Shown here: positions 10,744 to 48,136 of the stretch, in pieces
Layout of the letters: every line of letters starts with the position of its first letter
Position numbering within the stretch: position 1 is the stretch's first letter
Assembly: GCA_040756875.1 (NCBI GenBank)
Contig: JBFLYH010000002.1
Coordinates: 981,246-1,045,245, forward strand
Direction: 5' to 3'
DNA: 64,000 nt
From: a candidate division FCPU426 bacterium
GTDB lineage: Bacteria; Oederibacteriota; JAAXVQ01; JAUVAV01
The notes under the pieces: generated by a model
Seen by the model: the letters and a program-made list of their open reading frames with translations, nothing else
The model's database searches: none
Told to the model about the DNA's origin: nothing
Position numbers and translations under genes: made by a program

Positions 10744-10848
10744 CCACCGCCCCCTCCCCGTTCCGGGAAAAACAGCAAAACCATCCTCCCTTCGCCCCGT
10801 TGGATACCGGCGGAAGACGTCCTTACCAGCCTATCCGTAAAAAGGTTT

Positions 10849-10882
10849 GTTCGGATTCGGATTTGCCCTTCCGAATCCGAAC
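10849..10882. repeat. 13-bp perfect inverted repeat (hairpin) in the icd-mdh intergenic region
   Basis: GTTCGGATTCGGA (10849-10861), 8-nt loop, TCCGAATCCGAAC (10870-10882); flanked by an imperfect outer IR (10801-10813 / 10921-10935). Confidence 0.6.
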
Positions 10883-11023
10883 ATGGAATGCCAGAGGCCT
10901 TAAGGCGGATTCCGACGGTATCCTGCGGAGCGGTGAATGGGCTTTGTTGTTCGAATCTGGTTTTTTTTAGAAAGTATGTTAAGATAGCCCCGGAATTTAT
11001 TCGTTCCTCCGAAGGAGCTCCTT

Positions 11024-26130: not shown

Positions 26131-27456
26131 GTGCCTGAATCTTTCTCCGCCAGACAATTAATCGGTTGCGCCCTGGCTATCGGGCTGCTGCTTACAGGCT
26201 GCCGCGGCGCCACCCAGGCCCCGGCCTGGTCCCAGCGCTCCCTGATCGCCGGCCCTGAAATCCTCGTCCGTCTCTGGCGCAAAACCCCCTTCACGCAAGT
26301 GCAGCTCTCCTGGGACGGCACGCCGCTGCTGGCGGTGGATGCCAACGGAGAAATCATCCCCCTGCCGCAGGTCAACCGGCTCTATTTCTACCAGCGCGGC
26401 GAGCAGGTGGCCCTGGCATTCAAAGCCGGCCGCAAGGCGGCCCGCGAAGCCCAGGCGTACTCCTCGCTGGTGCTGCGGGTCCCGGGATCCGAGGTCAAGG
26501 CGTTCACGGTGTTGATCCCGGAATACGGCCGGCGGCGCAACTACGGCGCCCAAGCCGTGAGCCTGTCCGTGAAATACGGGCACTTGGCGCTGATCAACCA
26601 TCTGCCGCTGGAAATGTACCTGGCGCGCGTGCTGCCCGAGGAAATGGATCCGGAGCATTTCACGCTGGAGGCGCTCAAAGCCCAGGCCGTGGTGGCGCGC
26701 ACCTGGTCCCTGACCAATCTCAACCGGCACGCCCGCTATGGGTATCATTTTTGCGACGGGCCCCACTGCCAGGCCTACCGCGGCCGCAAGCGGGTGTCCG
26801 GCCGGGCCGAGGACGCGGTGAAGATGACCCTGGGCGAAGTGGTGCTCTCCGGCGGCGAGCCGGCCGAGGCGTTTTACCACAGCACCTGCGGGGGCAACAC
26901 GGCGTTCGTGGAAGACGTATGGCCCGGGGCCCGGCTTCCGTATCTGAGGCGCGTCGAGGACCGCTTCCGCCCCGGTCAGCGCGCCTACTGCGCCCATTCC
27001 CCCTATTCACGCTGGACGCTGTGGACTTCGCTCCGGCACGTGGAGCGGGTATTGAAACGCCGCCAGGCGATCGCCGCCGAAACCAATCTGCTGGACGTCA
27101 AAGTGGACGCGGTCAACCGTTCCGGCCGCGTGCTCAGGATTTGGCTGGCCACAGACCGCGGCGAATTGACACTGGGCGGGGAGTCCTTTCGCGCGTGGCT
27201 GAACGAGGAGTTCGGGCGAAAGCTCCTGAGCACGTTTTATTCCATCAGGGTGGAGGACGGGCAGTTTAAGCTGGAGGGGAAAGGCCTGGGACACGGGGTC
27301 GGCATGTGCCAATGGGGCGCCCGGGGCATGGCCCAGCTCGGTTTTTCCTACCAGGACATCCTACAGCATTACTTTCCGGGGACCACGATCGGCCGGTTCG
27401 AGGGGGCGGCCGTGGAACCCGGGGCGACCACGGTGAATTCGCACGCCGGGAAGTAG
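26131..27456 (+). CDS. SpoIID/LytB-domain protein (putative peptidoglycan-acting lipoprotein)
   Basis: GTG start at 26131; lipobox LLTGC; SpoIID/LytB blocks HSTCGGNTAFVEDVW and GHGVGMCQWGARGMA. Confidence 0.7.
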   Translation: MPESFSARQLIGCALAIGLLLTGCRGATQAPAWSQRSLIAGPEILVRLWRKTPFTQVQLSWDGTPLLAVDANGEIIPLPQVNRLYFYQRGEQVALAFKAGRKAAREAQAYSSLVLRVPGSEVKAFTVLIPEYGRRRNYGAQAVSLSVKYGHLALINHLPLEMYLARVLPEEMDPEHFTLEALKAQAVVARTWSLTNLNRHARYGYHFCDGPHCQAYRGRKRVSGRAEDAVKMTLGEVVLSGGEPAEAFYHSTCGGNTAFVEDVWPGARLPYLRRVEDRFRPGQRAYCAHSPYSRWTLWTSLRHVERVLKRRQAIAAETNLLDVKVDAVNRSGRVLRIWLATDRGELTLGGESFRAWLNEEFGRKLLSTFYSIRVEDGQFKLEGKGLGHGVGMCQWGARGMAQLGFSYQDILQHYFPGTTIGRFEGAAVEPGATTVNSHAGK

Positions 27457-29621
27457 CGGGGCGTGCGGGTTACCTGCAGGGGCGAACGCGAACGGCGGGC
27501 CGATCCCATGGGCGCCACTTTCAGGTTCACCTGATACCGGCCGGCCGGAAGGCCCGGCGGCACTGCCAGCTGATAAATTTCCTCCAGATTGCCGGGCGCG
27601 TAGGCCCACGAGGGCGGGGGCCAGTAACCCAGGCGCCGGACCGCTTTCCAGGGCCGGCGCAGGGTTCCGGAAACGGACGGCTGGATCCAAAAATACACCA
27701 CCCATTGTTCGCCGTTGGGCGCGGGCAGAAATTGCCAGCGCAAGGAAACAGTCAGCACGGAATCCAAACCCTCCGAAGCGGCCGGCGGCTGCACGCCGGC
27801 TGCCACCAGGCGCATGGGTCCTGCCGTCTCCAGCGGAGACGGGGTTTTGGCCGGGCCCAGGCCTGATTCGCCCCAGACCGGGCCGCGGGCCACGGGAAAC
27901 GGTTCAACGTGATAGGCTGAAAACCGCCGGTTGGTTCCGTCCGGGCCGTTCACTAAATAGCCTCCATCCTCCATTGCCAATAATCTGAAGCTTTGCAGAA
28001 AGTATTCCCAAGCCGGAGAGGACAGTTTGGGCCTGGCCAAGACCACCACCGGTTTTCCCGCCGACACCTGTTGGCCGAGTTCCCGGTTCCAGGCGGCCCA
28101 TTTGCGCCAGGCCTTGCCTTTTTCCGCAGCGCGGGCGCCGGCGGCAGCCGGCCAGGGTTTGGACAGAGGTTGCAGCAGCAAATCCGGACGCACGCCTTTG
28201 CGGGTTTGCAGCAACAAAGGCAGCAGCCCCTGCTGCATGTCCGGAAAAACCACGATGGCGGATTCGGGCAGGCTTTTCATCCCGCGGCCGACTTCGTCCA
28301 CGTCGGAAATCCGGGGGCCGGATGCCGCTTCCGGCCATCCCTGCAGCAACATCAGCACCGGGGCCAGGGCCACCAGGCTCATGCCGATCCAGGTGGGCTT
28401 GAGACGCATGCCCAGGCTCAAGCGGTGGTCGCCCTGCCCCAGCACGGTCAGGACATACTGCAGGGCTTCCAAACCCAGCCAGGGGCCGGCCATGGCCAGC
28501 CCCAGCATCACGTCCTCGCTTTGCCGCAGGGGCAGCAGCAGCAAACCCGCCAGGGAACAGACGATCAGAAGCGCCAGGAACTGGCGTCCCGGCAGGTTGA
28601 TTTCCTCGGTTACGCGCAGCGGGGTTTTGAGAAACAACCGGCGCAGGTTGGCGGCCAGCCCCAGGCCGGCCAAGGCCCAGGAAAAAACGGGAAAATGCCG
28701 CAGCCAGACGGACCAGACCGTCGACCAAGGTCCCTGCGGGGCAGCAGGGGGGGACCCGTGCGACTGGAGCTGGGTCAGGAAGCCCTGCCAGGCGTGAAGG
28801 TTCAGGGCCGGGCCGAGCGGCTGGAAATGATCCGTGTTGATGAAGACGTGATCCGCAGTCAAGCGCAGGGGCAGGTACAGATAGGGCAGCAAGGCGCCAA
28901 CCAGGGCCGCGGCCACGGCCTGGCCGTACATCCAGGCCTGCACGCGTTGGCGGGGGAGCCCCAGCACCAACCCCAGGAGCAGGGCCGAGGCTGCCCAAGG
29001 AAGCAAGCCCAGGGATTGGGAAGCCGTGGCGCCCAATAAAGCGGCCCAGGCCGTGAGGCGCCAGACGGACACCGGGTGACGGCCGGGCGTGAGCAGACCC
29101 AGCGTTAAGTACACGCCAACAGCCAACAGCCAAAGGTGGAAGGACATCGGGCCGATGCGCAAGCCGGCCTGCCAGACCGGAAAAAACCAAAAACAGGACA
29201 AAGCCGTGGCCAGGGAGACGAAGGGCGGAAACAACAGGCGGCGCGCGATCAAATAAACGAACAGGCAGGTTCCGGAGCCGAACAGCAGGCTGAGCAGGCG
29301 GTACCGCCACAGCTCTTCGCCCAAGGGCAGCACGACGGACAGGAACTTGGCGCTGAGCAGATACAACGGATAGCCCGGAAAACGGACCACGCCCAGCGTG
29401 CTCGCGCCCAGCACCCATTCGGCCTGGCCGCCGGCCCACGAGCTTGTGGCCAGCCAGGGCCAGGAAGTCAGCAAGGGCAGGAAAAAAGCCAGCAGGCCGA
29501 ACCAGCCGTCGGGTTTAAGGAAGAAAATCGTCTGATCCACCCGTTCCGGGCGAGAGGGTGCGTACACGAGCAGCAAGCCTCCGCGGAGCCTGAGCCGGTG
29601 ACGGCGTACGCTCCAGAGCAT
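27369..29621 (-). CDS. DUF2723-like polytopic membrane protein (GT-C-fold glycosyltransferase-like)
   Basis: Only supported minus-strand gene; 750 aa, N-terminal half strongly hydrophobic with LGVVRFPGYPL motif; start uncertain (alternative GTG at 29567 with GGAGG SD). Confidence 0.6.
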   Translation of the reverse strand: MLWSVRRHRLRLRGGLLLVYAPSRPERVDQTIFFLKPDGWFGLLAFFLPLLTSWPWLATSSWAGGQAEWVLGASTLGVVRFPGYPLYLLSAKFLSVVLPLGEELWRYRLLSLLFGSGTCLFVYLIARRLLFPPFVSLATALSCFWFFPVWQAGLRIGPMSFHLWLLAVGVYLTLGLLTPGRHPVSVWRLTAWAALLGATASQSLGLLPWAASALLLGLVLGLPRQRVQAWMYGQAVAAALVGALLPYLYLPLRLTADHVFINTDHFQPLGPALNLHAWQGFLTQLQSHGSPPAAPQGPWSTVWSVWLRHFPVFSWALAGLGLAANLRRLFLKTPLRVTEEINLPGRQFLALLIVCSLAGLLLLPLRQSEDVMLGLAMAGPWLGLEALQYVLTVLGQGDHRLSLGMRLKPTWIGMSLVALAPVLMLLQGWPEAASGPRISDVDEVGRGMKSLPESAIVVFPDMQQGLLPLLLQTRKGVRPDLLLQPLSKPWPAAAGARAAEKGKAWRKWAAWNRELGQQVSAGKPVVVLARPKLSSPAWEYFLQSFRLLAMEDGGYLVNGPDGTNRRFSAYHVEPFPVARGPVWGESGLGPAKTPSPLETAGPMRLVAAGVQPPAASEGLDSVLTVSLRWQFLPAPNGEQWVVYFWIQPSVSGTLRRPWKAVRRLGYWPPPSWAYAPGNLEEIYQLAVPPGLPAGRYQVNLKVAPMGSARRSRSPLQVTRTPRYFPACEFTVVAPGSTAAPSNRPIVVPGK

Positions 29622-29645
29622 TTAAAGCAGACAGGGTGATTCGAG

Positions 29646-29702
29646 AGCAGACAGCAGCAAGGTGAAAGGGCAGCCACTGCGTTCACCTTGCTGCTGTCTG
29701 CT
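29646..29702. repeat. 21-bp perfect inverted repeat with 15-nt loop
   Basis: AGCAGACAGCAGCAAGGTGAA (29646-29666) / TTCACCTTGCTGCTGTCTGCT (29682-29702); direct repeat AGCAGACAG also at 29625. Confidence 0.8.
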
Positions 29703-29904
29703 TATATTGTATCTGATTCACTGTCCGAGTGCCGGATGGCGCTCAGTCCGATTATACCCGCCCGGCGCCTTGAGCCAAGCATTAAGTTGCTGGACGCCCA
29801 TTTTTCTTCTCTATCTCGCCGCAAGCCGGAGGCAGGGCAGGGACGGGAGCCGGGTCTGACGAAAATCATTCATTTAAGCTGGTCGGCGTCAAAGGCTTTA
29901 AAAG

Positions 29905-29933
29905 TTGACAAGGCCATGACCCCCGACTATAAT
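29905..29933 (+). promoter_or_regulatory. consensus sigma70-type promoter TTGACA-17-TATAAT
   Basis: Perfect -35 (29905-29910), 17-nt spacer, perfect -10 (29928-29933); about 280 nt upstream of the YYY gene. Confidence 0.55.
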
Positions 29934-30212
29934 TGCACCAATTGTATTAAATTTTAGGCTTTTTCTGACCCTCGGTCTGTTCCGCCCTACCCGAACGAAC
30001 GGGTTCCCGCAAGTTATCCCGCAACGCCGAAGACCTTGGGTATGCCAGGGTATAAAGGCGTCATCAAGCGTTGCGGGATGTCGCCTGCCACTTGGCCGAC
30101 GACGCGAGGATGTTTAGTTATACCCCGGGCTTCGCCCGGGGGCTCTATATATATAATGTAGGCGTGGGCTTGGCACGGGAATGGCTTTGACACAGGAAGG
30201 GGATTCGCGCTG

Positions 30213-32618
30213 GTGACCGGTATTTTCGTGTGGTGGTTGTTGATCACAATCATGGGGCTGGCTGTTGTCCCGATCGCGTTCCGGGTTTTTCCGTTTCTTC
30301 CTGACCGGGGATATGCGTTTTCCAAACCCTTGGGGCTGGTGCTGGTCGGGCTGCTGACCTGGTGGATCGGGCAGGTGCATTTTTCAGTCCTTACCATTCT
30401 CCTGGCATTCGGGCTGATCGCCGGCCTGTCGTATTGGCTGTGGGTCCGCTCGGCCGCGGAGTTCCGTTCCCTGCTGTCCGAGCGGCTCGGGTTGATCGTG
30501 GCGGTGGAACTGTTTTTCGCGGTTCTCTTCCTCCTTTTCTGCTGGTTCCGCATGTACAACCCGGACATCATCGGCACCGAAAAATTCATGGACCTGGCGT
30601 TTCTCAATTCGCTCTCCCGCGCCACGTCGTTTCCGCCGCCGGACCCGTGGATGGCCGGCTCGAAATTTTTCATCAGCTACTATTATTTCGGCTACCTGCT
30701 CATGGCCATTCTGCTCCGCCTGTCGGCCGTGGCGCCGGCCGTGGGCTTCAATCTTTCCCTGGGCATGCTGTTCGCGCTCGCCGGGATCAGCACGTTCGGC
30801 GTGCTGTACAACCTCACGCGGCGCCTGAGCGCGGGCTTTGGCGGCTGGGCGCTGATCTACCTGATCGGCAATCTCGACGGGTTCAGGCAGGTGCTCGCCA
30901 CCAAAAGCATCGCCAGCTTCAACTGGTGGACGCCGTCGCGCGTCATCCCCGACACCATCAACGAGTTTCCGTTTTTCTCCTTTCTCCTCGGGGACATGCA
31001 TCCGCACATGCTGTCCATCCCCGTGGTCATGCTGACCCTGGGGTTCACGCTGAACCAGCTCAAATCCATGAACCGCGAGCCGAACTTCCGCGAGCCGGAG
31101 CAGCTTGCGACTACGCTGCTCTGGGGCCTGCTGATCGGGGCGCTGGGGTTCGCCAACAGCTGGGACCTGCCCACCACCTTCGGGCTGGCAGGGGCGGCGT
31201 TTCTGCTGCAGCAGTTGCGTTTCAAGCCGCGCCTGGCTGACCTGCCCTGGCGGCAGTGGGGGCTGGGCCTGGCGCTGATGCTGGGCGCCATGTTCGTGCC
31301 GTACCTGCCCTTTTATTTCCACTTCCACAGCCAGGCCAAAGGCCTTGCCTGGACCACGCAGAACACCCGGTTGGGGGATTTTCTGCTCCTCTTCGGCGTG
31401 TTCGCCTATCTCGGCCTGACCTTTCTCCTGGCCCGATACCATGCCTGGTTTTTGGCCGTGCTGTCCCGTCCGCAGGCCGCCTCCGGGGAAGGCAAGGCCG
31501 CCAAAGCCAAAGCCAGCCGTTTCTGCCCGCAGTGCGGGCATACGCTGCGCGAAGGCAAGCGCATTTGCGGCCAATGCGGGTACCAGACGGCGGGCGGAGG
31601 GTCTGAACAGGAATCTTCGCTCCTGTTGCGGCCCGTGGAAGAAACGCCGGAATGGCTGCGCGGGCTGTTCCTGTTCCTGCTGCAGCCCGTGGCGCGCTGG
31701 CGCCAGGGCCGGGGCGCGGCCCTGATCACAGCCGGCGTGCTCGCGGCGGCGGTCGGCGGCGCGCTGGTGAAAGGCCTCTTTTTCTCCACGCCGGGCAATC
31801 CCGCGCCCGTGTTCCTCGGCATCATGATTTTCGCGCTGGCGGCCGCCACCCTGCTGCTGTTCGCCCGCGTGGACAAGCCGGAGACAGTGTTCGCCCTGCT
31901 GCTGCTGGCCACGGCCCTGGCGCTGTTCATGGGCTGTGAAGTGCTGCATATCAACGACACCTTCAATCCGCCGCTGGACAGGATGAACACGGTTTTCAAG
32001 TTTTACTACCAGGCCTGGTTCCTGCTGGGCATCGCCGGCGTCTACGGCGTTTTCTGGACCTGGAAGTATTCGCTGCGCCACGCGAACCTCAAGGTGGTCT
32101 GGCTGTCGGGCCTGGCCCTGCTGCTGGCCGCGAGCCTGGTTTATCCTTACGCGGCCGCGGGCGTCAAGACCAACCGGTTTGCCACCCTCCCGACCCTGGA
32201 CGGCTCGGCATACCTGAATCAGGCGTACCCGGCCGACCGCGCGGGCATCGAATGGCTGCGCCGTTCGGTGGCCGGCAATCCCGTGGTGCTGGAAGCCACG
32301 GGCGGCGAATATACGGATTTTGCCCGCGTGTCCACGTTCACGGGCCTGCCCACGGTCCTGGGCTGGGCCGGCCACGAACTGCAGTGGCGCGGGAACTACG
32401 ACGAACCCGGCCGGCGGATTCCGGACATCGACACGCTCTACGGCTCTTCGGACGTGGCGGCCACTCAGGCCCTGCTGGACAAATACCAGATTACTTACGT
32501 TTTTGTCGGCACCCTGGAGCGGCAAAAATACCCGGAAGAAGCGCTGGCGAAATTCACCCAGTTGATGGACGTGGCGTTCGAACACCCCGGCGGCGTGCGG
32601 ATCTACCGCCGGCGGTGA
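30213..32618 (+). CDS. YYY-motif polytopic membrane protein (DUF2298 / TIGR03662-like) with inserted zinc ribbon
   Basis: GTG start; 801 aa; FISYYYFGYLL motif; CPQCG...CGQCG insertion; many TM helices. Confidence 0.65.
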   Translation: MTGIFVWWLLITIMGLAVVPIAFRVFPFLPDRGYAFSKPLGLVLVGLLTWWIGQVHFSVLTILLAFGLIAGLSYWLWVRSAAEFRSLLSERLGLIVAVELFFAVLFLLFCWFRMYNPDIIGTEKFMDLAFLNSLSRATSFPPPDPWMAGSKFFISYYYFGYLLMAILLRLSAVAPAVGFNLSLGMLFALAGISTFGVLYNLTRRLSAGFGGWALIYLIGNLDGFRQVLATKSIASFNWWTPSRVIPDTINEFPFFSFLLGDMHPHMLSIPVVMLTLGFTLNQLKSMNREPNFREPEQLATTLLWGLLIGALGFANSWDLPTTFGLAGAAFLLQQLRFKPRLADLPWRQWGLGLALMLGAMFVPYLPFYFHFHSQAKGLAWTTQNTRLGDFLLLFGVFAYLGLTFLLARYHAWFLAVLSRPQAASGEGKAAKAKASRFCPQCGHTLREGKRICGQCGYQTAGGGSEQESSLLLRPVEETPEWLRGLFLFLLQPVARWRQGRGAALITAGVLAAAVGGALVKGLFFSTPGNPAPVFLGIMIFALAAATLLLFARVDKPETVFALLLLATALALFMGCEVLHINDTFNPPLDRMNTVFKFYYQAWFLLGIAGVYGVFWTWKYSLRHANLKVVWLSGLALLLAASLVYPYAAAGVKTNRFATLPTLDGSAYLNQAYPADRAGIEWLRRSVAGNPVVLEATGGEYTDFARVSTFTGLPTVLGWAGHELQWRGNYDEPGRRIPDIDTLYGSSDVAATQALLDKYQITYVFVGTLERQKYPEEALAKFTQLMDVAFEHPGGVRIYRRR

Positions 32619-32702
32619 TCGCTGTGTATTGCCCCGGTGAGGAGCTCTCCGGGGTGACGTTGCCGGAACGACAAATTGAGTGAATATCGAAGGAGGCTCG
32701 GC

Positions 32703-34691
32703 GTGAACTGCCCGAACTGCGGCGCGGAAAACCCCGCCACCAACCTGTTCTGCGACTCGTGCGGGACCAAGCTGGTCAAACGAGACGCAGAAAAGCAGAA
32801 GAAAAAGCACATTCCCGAAGGGAGGGGCGTTCAGGTGAACACCCCTGCTCAAACCAAATCCTACCTGCCGGCCGAACCCGTAAAGCCGGCGTTGTCCCTG
32901 ACCGCCGTTCCGCTCGAAACCCTGGCCTGGGCCGTGGTCTTCGCGGTGGGCGCCTGGCTGCTGTTTTTCCAACTGGGCATGAAGCCCCTCCACCACGACG
33001 AGAGCCTGCACGCCTATTACGCCTGGGAGCTGTTCAAGGGCATGGGCTACAAGTACAACCCCATGATGCACGGCCCCTTCCTGTTCCACGCCAATGCCCT
33101 CATGTATTTCCTGTTCGGCGCCTCGGATTACACCTGCCGCATCATGCCCGCGCTCGCGGGCCTGACGGTGCTGGTGGTCACGTACTTCCTGCGCCCCTAT
33201 CTGGGCCGGACCGGCGCCCTGTTCACGGCGGCCATCATCGCCCTGTCGCCGTCCTTTACGTACTTCGGCCGGTTCATCCGCAACGACATTTACATTGCCG
33301 CGGATTCCATGCTCATGATTTACGGTTTTTTCCGCTATCTGGACACGCGCAAGCCCCGCTTTCTCTACCTGGCCGCCGTCGGCCTGGGCCTGGCGTTTTG
33401 CACCAAGGAAGTCACCTACATCAACGGCGCGATTTTCGTGACGTTCATGTTTTTCCGCTGGCTGTGGGAGTACACCATGCGCCCCGGCGCGGGCGAGAGC
33501 CGCTTCCTGCCGGCGCTGCAGGACCTGCTTAAACAGAGGAAGCCGCTGTGGGTTTCAGCCGGCATATTCTTCGGCCTGGTGCTCGTGCTCTACACCACCG
33601 TGTTCACCAACCCCAAGGGCTTCCTGGACGCGTTCACCGCTTCGCTGACCTATTGGCTGGGGCAGCACGAGGTGCAGCGCGGCAGCCAGCCGGTCTACTT
33701 CTACGCCGGGTTGATCCCCCTGTACGAAACCCTGACCACCCTGGGCGCGATCGGCGCCCTGGTTTACTACAGCTTCCTCAAGGACCGGGCCCACCGCGTC
33801 TGGCGCCTGTCCGCCTACCTGATCCTGGCCGCGGCCTGGTGGCTGTTCGCCTCGCAGGGCAACGAGACCTTCGGCCTGATATTCTCGCTGCTGCTCGTCA
33901 CGCTGGGCGTGGGTATGCTGGCGTATTTTTCGTTCGCCGAGGGCAATACGTTCGTCACGTTCCTGCAGTTGTGGACCCTGGCGGCTTTTTCGGATTATTC
34001 CTTCGCGGGCGAGCGCATGCCCTGGCTGATCCTCCACCCCCTGCTGCCCATGACGCTTTTGACCGGGTTTTGGCTGGGGGAACTGTGGAACCGCTTCCAG
34101 CGCCAGCGGGCCTGGCTGCTCGCCGTCTTTACCGCGGGCGCCGTGCTCATGCTGCACAACGCCAGCCTGGTGAACTTCTACGGCGGCGGGGCGAACCCCG
34201 CGGAGCTCCTGGTGTACGTGCAGTCCTCGACCGACGTCAAGCAGGTGGTGCGGCAGCTCACCAATATGTCCAAGCGCCTGACCGGCGGGCTGGAGATGAA
34301 GATCACCTGCGAGGATTACTGCTCCTGGCCTTTCGCCTGGTACCTGCGCGATTTCAAGTTCGTGGGGTATCCCAAGTTTACGGCCACCCAGTCGCCGGGC
34401 TCGATCGAGGAAAACCCCGTGATCATCACCGGCGTGGAAATGGCCGCGCCCGGGCACGATGACCGCGTGGCCGAGCTCCTGGCGGAGAAGTACGTGGCCC
34501 AGCGCTACAAATTGCGCGTGTGGTGGGCCCCGGACAGCCGCGCGTTTTTTGACGACACCTTCGGCGGAAAACTGAAGAAGATCTGGAAATTGGTGGTGTA
34601 CAAGGAGCCGTGGAGCGGGCTCGGGTCCTACGACATGATCGTGTACGTGCGCAAGGACCTGGCCCATTTGTACTGGAGCCACGCGGAGTAA
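32703..34691 (+). CDS. TIGR03663-like membrane protein (PMT/ArnT-like GT-C N-terminus) with N-terminal zinc ribbon
   Basis: Start moved to GTG 32703 (AGGAGG SD 6 nt upstream); CPNCG...CDSCG; DE dipeptide (HHDESLH) and HGP tripeptide (MMHGPFLFH). Confidence 0.6.
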   Translation: MNCPNCGAENPATNLFCDSCGTKLVKRDAEKQKKKHIPEGRGVQVNTPAQTKSYLPAEPVKPALSLTAVPLETLAWAVVFAVGAWLLFFQLGMKPLHHDESLHAYYAWELFKGMGYKYNPMMHGPFLFHANALMYFLFGASDYTCRIMPALAGLTVLVVTYFLRPYLGRTGALFTAAIIALSPSFTYFGRFIRNDIYIAADSMLMIYGFFRYLDTRKPRFLYLAAVGLGLAFCTKEVTYINGAIFVTFMFFRWLWEYTMRPGAGESRFLPALQDLLKQRKPLWVSAGIFFGLVLVLYTTVFTNPKGFLDAFTASLTYWLGQHEVQRGSQPVYFYAGLIPLYETLTTLGAIGALVYYSFLKDRAHRVWRLSAYLILAAAWWLFASQGNETFGLIFSLLLVTLGVGMLAYFSFAEGNTFVTFLQLWTLAAFSDYSFAGERMPWLILHPLLPMTLLTGFWLGELWNRFQRQRAWLLAVFTAGAVLMLHNASLVNFYGGGANPAELLVYVQSSTDVKQVVRQLTNMSKRLTGGLEMKITCEDYCSWPFAWYLRDFKFVGYPKFTATQSPGSIEENPVIITGVEMAAPGHDDRVAELLAEKYVAQRYKLRVWWAPDSRAFFDDTFGGKLKKIWKLVVYKEPWSGLGSYDMIVYVRKDLAHLYWSHAE

Positions 34692-48059: not shown

Positions 48060-48136
48060 GACTGCCAAGCTCAAGGTAGGGGCGTTCAATTGAACGCCCC
48101 TACAAAACGAAAACCCACCGAAAGGAAGAAACATCC

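What the first reader, a model, noticed from the sequence alone, without database searches (positions are those of the whole stretch)
29622..29702. 21-bp perfect inverted repeat directly upstream of the minus-strand DUF2723 gene
AGCAGACAGCAGCAAGGTGAA and its exact reverse complement are separated by 15 nt, starting 25 nt from the annotated start codon at 29621, and the motif AGCAGACAG is also directly repeated at 29625. A stem of this length in the 5' region would strongly affect translation initiation or serve as a protein-binding operator. No clear Shine-Dalgarno precedes the annotated ATG, so the true start may be the downstream GTG at 29567.
Basis: seen in the sequence. Interest (0 to 1): 0.5.

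Follow-up and report, generated by a model that had tools for sequence, protein, structure and literature searches.

The report
Long stem-loop in an mRNA leader
The 21-bp perfect inverted repeat is real and forms the tip of a long hairpin in the untranslated leader of a membrane glycosyltransferase gene of an uncultured bacterium (candidate division FCPU426); related genomes carry an imperfect version at the same place, so it is an ordinary kind of leader element whose exact role (probably mRNA processing or stability) is still only inferred.

Summary
The repeat is confirmed: arms 29646-29666 and 29682-29702, 21 nt, 100% complementary, 15-nt loop. It is the longest perfect inverted repeat in the window (shuffles reach 10-14) and is also present in a second assembly. 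A GGAGG lies 10 nt upstream, all orthologues start there, and NCBI annotates 732 aa from it. A promoter conserved across seven lineages (TTGGCT-16-TATAAT, 29778-29751, minus strand) lies upstream of the hairpin. The hairpin therefore sits inside a leader of about 180 nt, 62 nt upstream of the SD, and does not cover the ribosome-binding site. Related FCPU426 genomes have a homologous hairpin (H1) in the same register: 11 invariant pairs, 4 compensatory pairs, and 3 mismatches that are paired in the window. A second hairpin (H2) abuts the SD. One strain has lost the whole leader. The nearby direct repeat is a partial tandem copy of the 3' arm, which points to in-situ arm homogenisation or duplication. 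No Rfam family, terminator tail or further copies were found. The best reading is a structure-conserved 5'-leader RNA stem-loop, probably an RNase III or stability element. That mechanism is inferred, not shown. Interest is modest.

The parts
29751..29778 (-). Predicted sigma-70-type promoter of the DUF2723 gene: -35 TTGGCT (29778-29773), 16-nt spacer, -10 TATAAT (29756-29751). The predicted TSS is about 29744.
   Evidence: Promoter scan. GCTTGG-N17-GTATAAT is conserved in six of seven lineages and the -10 in all seven (alignment A5; A2), while the distance to the start codon varies from 30 to 230 nt.
29682..29702 (-). 5' arm of hairpin H1 in the mRNA sense (AGCAGACAGCAGCAAGGTGAA).
29667..29681 (-). 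15-nt loop of H1 (CGCAGUGGCUGCCCU in the mRNA sense), with a possible 4-bp mini-stem.
   Evidence: The L003 homologue also has a 15-nt loop, beginning CCGC.
29646..29666 (-). 3' arm of H1 (TTCACCTTGCTGCTGTCTGCT).
29628..29727 (-). Extended H1 as predicted by RNAfold: an imperfect basal stem (29727-29712 with 29645-29628), an internal loop, then the 21-bp perfect apical stem.
   Evidence: MFE -54.6 kcal/mol for 111 nt; whole leader z = -5.1 to -5.4.
29625..29640 (-). Partial tandem copy of the 3' arm. ATCACC-CTGTCTGCT(T) equals TTCACC-[TTGCTG]-CTGTCTGCT without the 6 nt in brackets.
   Evidence: Read from the sequence and repeats D6 and I4. Relative to L003 the window carries about 20 extra nt here.
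29585..29614 (-). Hairpin H2 abutting the SD. It is degraded in the window (8 of 11 ancestral pairs) and intact in relatives.
   Evidence: Alignment A4 and pair counts; folds.
29578..29582 (-). Shine-Dalgarno GGAGG, 10 nt upstream of the GTG.
   Evidence: Sequence. AGGAGG is invariant in the close relatives.
29565..29567 (-). Probable true start codon GTG of the DUF2723/TMEM260-like gene.
   Evidence: (P0001 is 732 aa; orthologues start at the equivalent residue).
27369..29567 (-). DUF2723 / TMEM260-like (GT-C type) membrane glycosyltransferase gene, 732 aa from the GTG.
   Evidence: Pfam PF11028; homologues.
29905..29933 (+). Divergent promoter, a perfect TTGACA-17-TATAAT, for the DUF2298 gene (30213-32618). 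It is not part of the hairpin but defines the other half of the intergenic region.
   Evidence: 12 of 12 matches; conserved in all close relatives; Pfam PF10060.

Best explanation
The 21-bp perfect inverted repeat is the apical stem of a roughly 100-nt stem-loop (H1). H1 lies in the roughly 180-nt 5' leader of the mRNA for a DUF2723/TMEM260-like membrane glycosyltransferase of a candidate division FCPU426 bacterium. The leader starts at a conserved sigma-70-type promoter (29778-29751, minus strand). It contains H1, then a second short hairpin H2 directly before the SD (GGAGG, 29582-29578), and ends at the real start codon, the GTG at 29567. H1 is inherited, not inserted. Sister lineages have a hairpin of the same length, register and loop size at the same place, with different sequence, compensatory pair changes and a few mismatches. 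In the window's lineage the stem has been made perfect, probably by template switching or arm duplication during replication. A partial second copy of the 3' arm (29640-29625) is left over from that event. Inferred mechanism: H1 acts in the RNA. Two helical turns of uninterrupted duplex, extended by a basal stem, make a near-ideal substrate for a double-strand-specific endonuclease (RNase III). Cleavage in the leader, or the mere presence of the stable stem, would then set the half-life and so the output of the glycosyltransferase mRNA. H2 would form the structured 5' end of the processed message. H1 does not occlude the ribosome-binding site. What is shown: the existence, uniqueness, position and conservation of the structure, the promoter, and the start codon. 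What is inferred: that it is transcribed, that it works as RNA, and that RNase III or a stability effect is the mechanism.
For: The repeat is real and far beyond chance and is reproduced in a second assembly. The promoter upstream of it is conserved in seven lineages, whereas the distance from promoter to start varies, and no promoter-like site lies between hairpin and start. The start is the GTG at 29567 with a conserved AGGAGG. The leaders of the window, L003, L005 and L008 all fold into a long hairpin plus an SD-proximal hairpin, with z-scores of -5.4, -5.9, -4.7 and -8.8. L008 has a 26-bp perfect stem. A structure-blind MAFFT alignment of the window and L003 H1 puts both stems in the same register. 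It gives 24 pairs: 11 invariant, 4 changed on both sides, 2 changed on one side. 85% of cells are paired, against 41-52% when the partner is slid, and both loops are 15 nt. H2 shows 2 compensatory pairs between L003 and L005. Among strains of one species H1 has 0 differences in 62 nt, against 23 in the 180 nt upstream. There is no U-tract after the stem on either strand, so it is not a terminator. PMC5371410 states a minimum RNase III target of 22 nt of duplex, and that cleavage in 5' UTRs can either shorten (rnc, pnp) or lengthen (yajQ) mRNA half-life. PMC8794818 documents template switching as a source of perfect stems.
Against: No transcript data exist, so the TSS is only predicted. The sense and antisense strands fold equally well, so an RNA-level role cannot be separated from a DNA-level role. 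Only three or four independent lineages are available, so covariation is weak statistically (29 of 500 and 70 of 500 shuffles reach the observed score), and template switching can create compensatory-looking changes without selection. A strain with an identical protein (L002/L004) lacks the whole H1+H2 leader, and L006 and L007 have short leaders, so the element is dispensable. No RNase III gene could be checked, since there is none in the 64-kb window. The stem starts about 17-40 nt from the predicted 5' end, which does not fit a classical 5'-terminal stabiliser hairpin.
Confidence: 0.45

Rival explanations
1. A functionally neutral palindrome. The perfect stem would be only the footprint of a replication template switch or arm duplication in a hairpin-prone, fast-evolving leader, with no regulatory role of its own.
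For: The stem is flawless while orthologues carry mismatches, and a partial tandem copy of the 3' arm sits beside it. The leader is present or absent between strains whose flanks are 99.6-99.96% identical, and is absent in L006 and L007. H2 is decaying in the window. The DUF2298 leader of the same window also carries lineage-specific hairpin-forming extra sequence. Template switching is known to create perfect stems (PMC8794818).
Against: A long hairpin at the same place, in the same register and with the same loop size persists across species that share only about 60% protein identity, with 4 compensatory pairs. A comparable two-hairpin leader exists in the distant L008. H1 is invariant among strains while the neighbouring intergenic DNA varies.
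Confidence: 0.25
2. A DNA-level protein-binding site. A dimeric regulator would bind the inverted repeat downstream of the promoter and block elongation or loop the divergent promoter region.
For: Perfect dyad symmetry. The location is in a divergent regulatory region between two glycosyltransferase-type genes. Sense and antisense are equally stable, so nothing forces an RNA reading.
Against: Arms of 21 bp separated by 15 bp are far larger than usual operators. The arm sequence is only about 57% conserved with L003 and unrecognisable in L005 and L008, whereas the pairing is kept. L003 keeps pairing partly through G-U wobbles, which have no meaning in duplex DNA. The element lies at about +42 to +98, not over either promoter. 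No regulator gene is conserved in the neighbourhood.
Confidence: 0.12
3. A translational switch. The 5' arm would alternatively pair with the translation initiation region or with the orphan copy next to the ATG, so that H1 formation controls ribosome access.
For: AGCAGCAAG in the 5' arm is complementary to CUUGCUGCU in the SD-to-GTG spacer (I7). AAGCAGACAG can also pair with CUGUCUGCUU at 29634-29625 (I4).
Against: A 9-nt match is about what chance gives in this 800-nt region (8 such pairs). The 21-bp stem would out-compete either alternative by a wide margin. No equivalent complementarity exists in L003 or L005, read from their sequences. The SD itself is in no predicted stem.
Confidence: 0.08
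4. A copy of a small palindromic mobile or repeated element (REP, MITE or Correia-like) that landed in the leader.
For: Compact perfect terminal symmetry. L008 has a 110-nt unit with 26-bp perfect ends. There is presence/absence polymorphism of the leader, and an unrelated 257-nt structured insertion in L002.
Against: It is single-copy in 64 kb even at 3 mismatches and with a covariance model. No target-site duplication is visible. It is orthologous in position, register and partly in sequence to the L003 hairpin. A 19-mer of the arm has only 5 single chance hits in 185,579 species genomes, but the window's own genome is not in that collection, so genome-wide copy number is untested.
Confidence: 0.07
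5. An intrinsic terminator or attenuator, for the leader itself or for an antisense transcript.
For: A very stable stem. The plus strand has a moderately T-rich stretch after it (TATATTGTATCTGATT).
Against: There is no U-run after the stem on the sense strand (CUCGAAUCACCC). The terminator scan does not report it. The flanks of the homologous hairpins are not U-rich in a consistent way. No plus-strand gene or promoter lies upstream of it.
Confidence: 0.03

Closest known systems
RNase III-processed 5'-leader stem-loops of bacterial mRNAs (E. coli rnc and pnp leaders, yajQ, adhE; PMC5371410)
   Same: A long, nearly uninterrupted duplex of about two helical turns sits in the 5' UTR, upstream of and separate from the RBS. 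In the known cases such a duplex sets mRNA half-life after cleavage.
   Different: Cleavage is untested, and the organism is uncultured. The stem is perfect rather than interrupted by the internal loops typical of natural E. coli sites. The gene is a membrane glycosyltransferase rather than an RNA-metabolism gene. There is no sequence similarity to any known site and no Rfam family.
5'-UTR stabiliser hairpins (ompA 5' stem-loop, B. subtilis aprE/ermC-type leaders)
   Same: A stable stem-loop in a long leader of a gene for an envelope protein, which could protect against 5'-end-dependent decay.
   Different: Known stabilisers sit within a few nucleotides of the 5' end. Here about 17-40 nt precede the structure according to the predicted TSS.
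Perfect stems created by replication template switching or quasipalindrome correction (PMC8794818; PMC7202029)
   Same: An imperfect ancestral hairpin (as kept in L003) corresponds to a flawless one here, with multi-base changes on both arms and a leftover partial arm copy.
   Different: This describes the origin, not the function. The switch points cannot be reconstructed with only three lineages, and a simple tandem duplication of the 3' arm followed by a 6-nt deletion fits equally well.
Correia/NEMIS and other MITE-like palindromic elements inserted in leaders
   Same: A compact inverted-repeat unit in a 5' UTR that would form an RNase III-sensitive hairpin. The leader shows presence/absence polymorphism between strains.
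   Different: It is single-copy in the window, has no target duplication, and is positionally and partly sequence-homologous to hairpins of sister species.

Membership tests
RNase III-cleaved 5'-leader stem-loop | Lies inside the transcribed 5' UTR | tested here: met
   The conserved promoter is upstream (29778-29751), with no promoter-like site between stem and start. The TSS itself is predicted, not measured.
RNase III-cleaved 5'-leader stem-loop | About 20-22 bp or more of continuous duplex | tested here: met
   21 perfect pairs plus a basal extension. The minimum of 22 nt is quoted in PMC5371410.
RNase III-cleaved 5'-leader stem-loop | Staggered cleavage by RNase III and an effect on mRNA half-life | not testable with these tools
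   Needs an in-vitro cleavage assay, or RNA 5'-end mapping in wild type versus an rnc mutant.
RNase III-cleaved 5'-leader stem-loop | The organism encodes RNase III | tested here: inconclusive
   No RNase III signature in the six-frame translation of the 64-kb window. The rest of the genome could not be read.
Intrinsic terminator / attenuator | G+C-rich stem followed directly by a U-run | tested here: not met
   Not reported by the terminator scan. The sense-strand tail is CUCGAAUCACCC.
RBS-sequestering hairpin / RNA thermometer | SD or start codon is base-paired within the stem | tested here: not met
   The stem ends at 29646 and the SD is at 29582-29578, with H2 in between.
REP / MITE / Correia-like repeated palindromic element | Many dispersed copies in the genome | tested here: inconclusive
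   No other copy in 64 kb. The genome-contig scan gave only 5 chance hits in unrelated taxa and did not contain this genome.
REP / MITE / Correia-like repeated palindromic element | Insertion relative to empty orthologous sites, with target duplication | tested here: not met
   A homologous hairpin sits at the same site and in the same register in L003/L069/L070. No flanking duplication is visible.
Transcription-factor operator palindrome | Half-site sequence conserved across orthologous promoters and overlapping or adjacent to the promoter | tested here: not met
   The 5' arms are 12/21 identical to L003 and unrecognisable in L005 and L008, while pairing is kept. The position is about +42 to +98.
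Any described RNA family (Rfam 15) | Covariance-model score at or above the gathering threshold | tested here: not met
   No hit at gathering in the whole window. There are only sub-threshold generic miRNA-precursor hits on the hairpin (35 bits against 82).

The most novel reading that the evidence does not exclude
The two-hairpin leader (a long H1 of about 20-26 bp plus an SD-adjacent H2) could be a previously undescribed, lineage-specific cis-regulatory RNA of FCPU426-type bacteria. It would control a cell-envelope GT-C glycosyltransferase gene through a dedicated double-strand RNA-binding or RNA-cleaving factor, and would be kept perfect by recurrent template switching. On this reading it is old enough to be shared with the distant L008 lineage, where AGG-GATAGGC in the 5' arm resembles AGGCGATAGGC of L003.
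Probability: 0.2. Interest if true: 0.45.

Novelty: new member of a known kind. Interest (0 to 1): 0.27.

Why it matters
The finding corrects the gene model: the start is the GTG at 29567, not the ATG at 29621. It defines the promoter, leader and RBS of a conserved divergent glycosyltransferase locus in an uncultured candidate phylum for which no regulatory information exists. It also gives a clean natural example of an imperfect leader hairpin becoming a flawless 21-bp stem, with a leftover arm copy. That example is relevant to the debate on how long RNA stems arise and are maintained. If the stem is an RNase III or stability element, it would be a simple handle for predicting expression control of envelope glycosylation genes in these bacteria. 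None of this is surprising to a specialist, because long leader hairpins are common.

Tried and rejected
- Rfam at gathering on the whole window and at E<=10 on the intergenic region: only generic sub-threshold miRNA-precursor matches.
- Genome-contig scan with a 19-mer of the arm: 5 single chance hits in unrelated organisms.
- Metagenome-contig scan with the DUF2723 alignment: 54 loci, but only L014 is orthologous, and it equals the L007 species. The rest are distant paralogues.
- The DNA of the P0002 contig was not retrievable.
- More distant DUF2298 loci (L072-L075) do not have the divergent DUF2723 neighbour and added nothing.
- Covariance model of H1 built from the window and L003: only self hits. 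It does not detect the L005 or L008 hairpins.
- Sense versus antisense folding energy and G-U counts, to decide between RNA and DNA: no asymmetry, so inconclusive.
- RNase III signature search in the window: none, which is uninformative for the genome.
- Terminator reading: rejected, because there is no U-tract.
- Small ORFs overlapping the hairpin (29468-29686 minus, 29702-29869 minus): not called in either assembly. They overlap the conserved promoter or are out of frame in relatives, so they were rejected as genes without further testing.
- N-terminal extension from the ATG at 29621: rejected.

Full report
**1. Observation**

The plus strand of the window reads AGCAGACAGCAGCAAGGTGAA (29646-29666), then 15 nt, then TTCACCTTGCTGCTGTCTGCT (29682-29702). 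This is a 21-nt inverted repeat with 100% complementarity.
- The arm has no other match in the 64-kb window, even with three mismatches. None is expected in shuffles.
- It is the longest inverted repeat of the window.
- In 30 dinucleotide-preserving shuffles the longest perfect hairpin stem with a loop of at most 80 nt was 10-14 bp, against 21 bp in the real sequence.
- The identical 57-nt element is present in a separate Logan assembly of run SRR29635779 (L001), so an assembly artefact is unlikely.

**2. Genes and organism**

- The minus-strand ORF 27369-29621 matches Pfam PF11028 (TMEM260-like, formerly DUF2723).
- Its NCBI counterpart, P0001, is labelled 'candidate division FCPU426 bacterium' and is 732 aa long. 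That length corresponds to a start at the GTG at 29567. FCPU426 is an uncultured candidate phylum.
- A DUF2298 gene (30213-32618, plus strand) is transcribed divergently, followed by a zinc-ribbon/PMT_2 glycosyltransferase gene (32676-34691).
- This arrangement is conserved in the relatives retrieved.

**3. Start codon**

- The ATG at 29621 directly follows an in-frame TAA and has no SD.
- The three orthologues of about 60% identity all begin at the residue equivalent to the GTG ((M/V)YAP...).
- GGAGG lies at 29582-29578, 10 nt before the GTG. AGGAGG-N10/11-GTG is invariant in the close relatives.
- The position equivalent to the ATG is CTG in L003 and TTG in L005, and in L005 it is out of frame.

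The stem ends 79 nt upstream of the start codon and 62 nt upstream of the SD.

**4. Promoter and leader**

- A minus-strand promoter-like site, TTGGCT-16-TATAAT (29778-29751), lies upstream of the hairpin.
- The motif GCTTGG-N17-GTATAAT is conserved in six of seven lineages and the -10 in all seven. These lineages include ones whose DUF2723 protein is only 31-36% identical.
- The distance from the -10 to the start codon varies from 30 to 230 nt.
- No promoter-like site lies between the hairpin and the start.

The hairpin is therefore most probably inside a leader of about 180 nt, at roughly +42 to +98 of the transcript. This is a prediction. No transcript data exist.

**5. Comparative anatomy of the leader**

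Four lineages have long leaders that fold far better than shuffled sequence:

| Lineage | Leader z-score |
|---|---|
| window | -5.4 |
| L003 / L069 / L070 | -5.9 |
| L005 / L068 | -4.7 |
| L008 (distant) | -8.8 |

- Each long leader consists of a long hairpin H1 followed by a shorter hairpin H2 that abuts the SD.
- In L008, H1 is a 26-bp perfect stem around about 58 nt.
- Three lineages (L002/L004, L006, L007/L014) have short leaders without hairpins.

**6. Homology of H1**

A plain MAFFT alignment of the window's H1 with that of L003 is ungapped, apart from two loop positions. It places both stems in the same register, column i with column 64-i. Pair counts on that alignment:

| Measure | Value |
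|---|---|
| Pairs | 24 |
| Invariant | 11 |
| Changed on both sides (C-G/G-C twice, C-G/A-U, G-C/U-A) | 4 |
| Changed on one side (to G-U) | 2 |
| Cells paired, true register | 85% |
| Cells paired, partner slid by 1-3 columns | 41-52% |

- L003 has three single mismatches (C·C, U·U, C·C) at positions where the window has Watson-Crick pairs.
- Both loops are 15 nt and begin C(C)GC.
- The window's stem is thus a perfected version of an older imperfect hairpin, not a new insertion.
- With two sequences the shuffle control is weak: 29 of 500 shuffles reach the observed covariation.

**7. H2 and strain-level variation**

- H2 is GGAGCCTGAGC/GCTCAGGCTCC in L003 and GGCGGCTGA/TCAGCCGCC in L005, which gives two compensatory pairs.
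- In the window three of the eleven pairs are broken.
- Within the L003 species, H1 (62 nt) shows no difference between L003 and L069. The 180 nt upstream carry 23 differences and the first 300 nt of the gene carry 12.
- This fits constraint on H1. It could also reflect a recombination mosaic, because the promoter segment is only 92% identical between L002 and L003 while the flanks are 99.6-99.96% identical.

**8. The direct repeat**

- On the mRNA strand the 3' arm TTCACC-TTGCTG-CTGTCTGCT is followed, after CTCGA, by ATCACC-CTGTCTGCT-T (29640-29625). This is the same arm lacking six bases (read; repeats D6 and I4).
- Relative to L003 the window has about 20 extra nt here.
- The repeat is therefore a partial tandem copy of the 3' arm.
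- Together with the flawless stem, this points to in-situ rearrangement. One route is a replication template switch that copied the 5' arm. Such events are documented to create and repair perfect stems (PMC8794818). The other route is a duplication of the arm followed by a 6-nt deletion. The two cannot be distinguished with the present sampling.

**9. What it is not**

- **No known RNA family.** There is no hit at gathering threshold in the window. Only generic sub-threshold miRNA-precursor models match the hairpin.
- **Not an intrinsic terminator.** No U-run follows the stem on the sense strand, the scan does not report it, and the flanks in the relatives are not consistently U-rich.
- **Not an RBS-sequestering stem.** The SD is 62 nt away and unpaired. 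The 9-nt complementarity of the 5' arm to the SD-GTG spacer (I7) is at chance level for this region and is absent in relatives.
- **Not a detectable repeat family.** There is no second copy in 64 kb by pattern search or by a covariance model. The whole genome could not be searched, because the species-genome collection lacks it. The 19-mer scan returned five single chance hits in unrelated taxa.
- **An operator is unlikely.** Pairing rather than sequence is conserved, the dyad is very large, and it lies downstream of the promoter. It cannot be excluded, because the sense and antisense strands fold equally well.

**10. Mechanism (inferred)**

- A perfect 21-bp duplex extended by a basal stem (29727-29628) is what bacterial RNase III recognises. 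PMC5371410 quotes a minimum duplex of 22 nt. It lists 5'-UTR cleavages that destabilise (rnc, pnp, metY and others) or stabilise (yajQ) the downstream message.
- The most likely role is therefore control of the processing or half-life of the glycosyltransferase mRNA. H2 would form the structured 5' end after cleavage.
- The direction of the effect cannot be predicted.
- The loss of the whole leader in L002/L004, whose protein is identical to that of L003, shows that the element is dispensable. This keeps a neutral-palindrome reading alive.

**11. Verdict**

The location in the 5' region and the GTG start are right. A direct effect on translation initiation, or an operator role, is not supported.
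- The element is a new member of a known kind, a leader stem-loop, in an unstudied phylum. It has some interest as an example of stem perfection.
- Interest is about 0.27.

Noticed in passing
L002 3634-3890 (GCA_964630235.1): A 257-nt insertion upstream of the DUF2723 promoter that is absent from L003, L069 and L070, although the flanks are over 99.6% identical. It is highly structured (MFE -132 kcal/mol, z -6.6), its two ends pair with each other, and it has no ORF and no Rfam hit. It is a candidate small non-coding mobile element or RNA gene. The same genome has lost the 130-nt H1+H2 leader.
   Followed up: partly
window 29905-29933 (+): A perfect consensus promoter, TTGACA-17-TATAAT, for the DUF2298 gene, conserved in all close relatives. 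Its -10 is embedded in the palindrome TATAATTG-cac-CAATTRTA, which is also conserved and could be a regulator site.
   Followed up: partly
window 30000-30150 (+): The 270-nt DUF2298 leader carries about 150 nt that the relatives lack. This extra sequence includes a 12-bp perfect inverted repeat (30016-30027 / 30068-30079) and a CCCCGGGC-ttcg-GCCCGGGG hairpin (about 30124-30143). The leader as a whole is not significantly structured (z -1.4).
   Followed up: partly
L008 2735-2845 (JGI 3300033146): A 26-bp perfect inverted repeat (GGCTTCAGGGATAGGCTATTTTACCC) around about 58 nt, at the equivalent leader position of a DUF2723 orthologue of only 34% identity. It is followed by a 12-bp hairpin before AAGGAG. 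Its 5' arm shares AGG-GATAGGC with the L003 arm.
   Followed up: partly
window 27369-27456: The 3' ends of the convergent DUF2723 and SpoIID-domain genes overlap by 88 nt. A 61-88-nt overlap is called in every related locus.
   Followed up: no
window 29565-29621: Gene-model disagreement. The Logan gene call starts at the ATG at 29621 (750 aa), while the NCBI model starts at the GTG at 29567 (732 aa). Comparative evidence favours the GTG.
   Followed up: yes
window 10848-10883 and 48076-48103: Two other perfect inverted repeats in intergenic DNA: one of 14 bp with an 8-nt loop, and a 28-nt perfect palindrome GTAGGGGCGTTCAA/TTGAACGCCCCTAC directly after a stop codon.
   Followed up: no
L002 3891-3979 vs L003 2899-2987: The 89-nt promoter segment is only 92% identical between two strains whose flanking DNA is 99.6-99.96% identical. 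This suggests a recombination or mutation hot spot around the leader.
   Followed up: no
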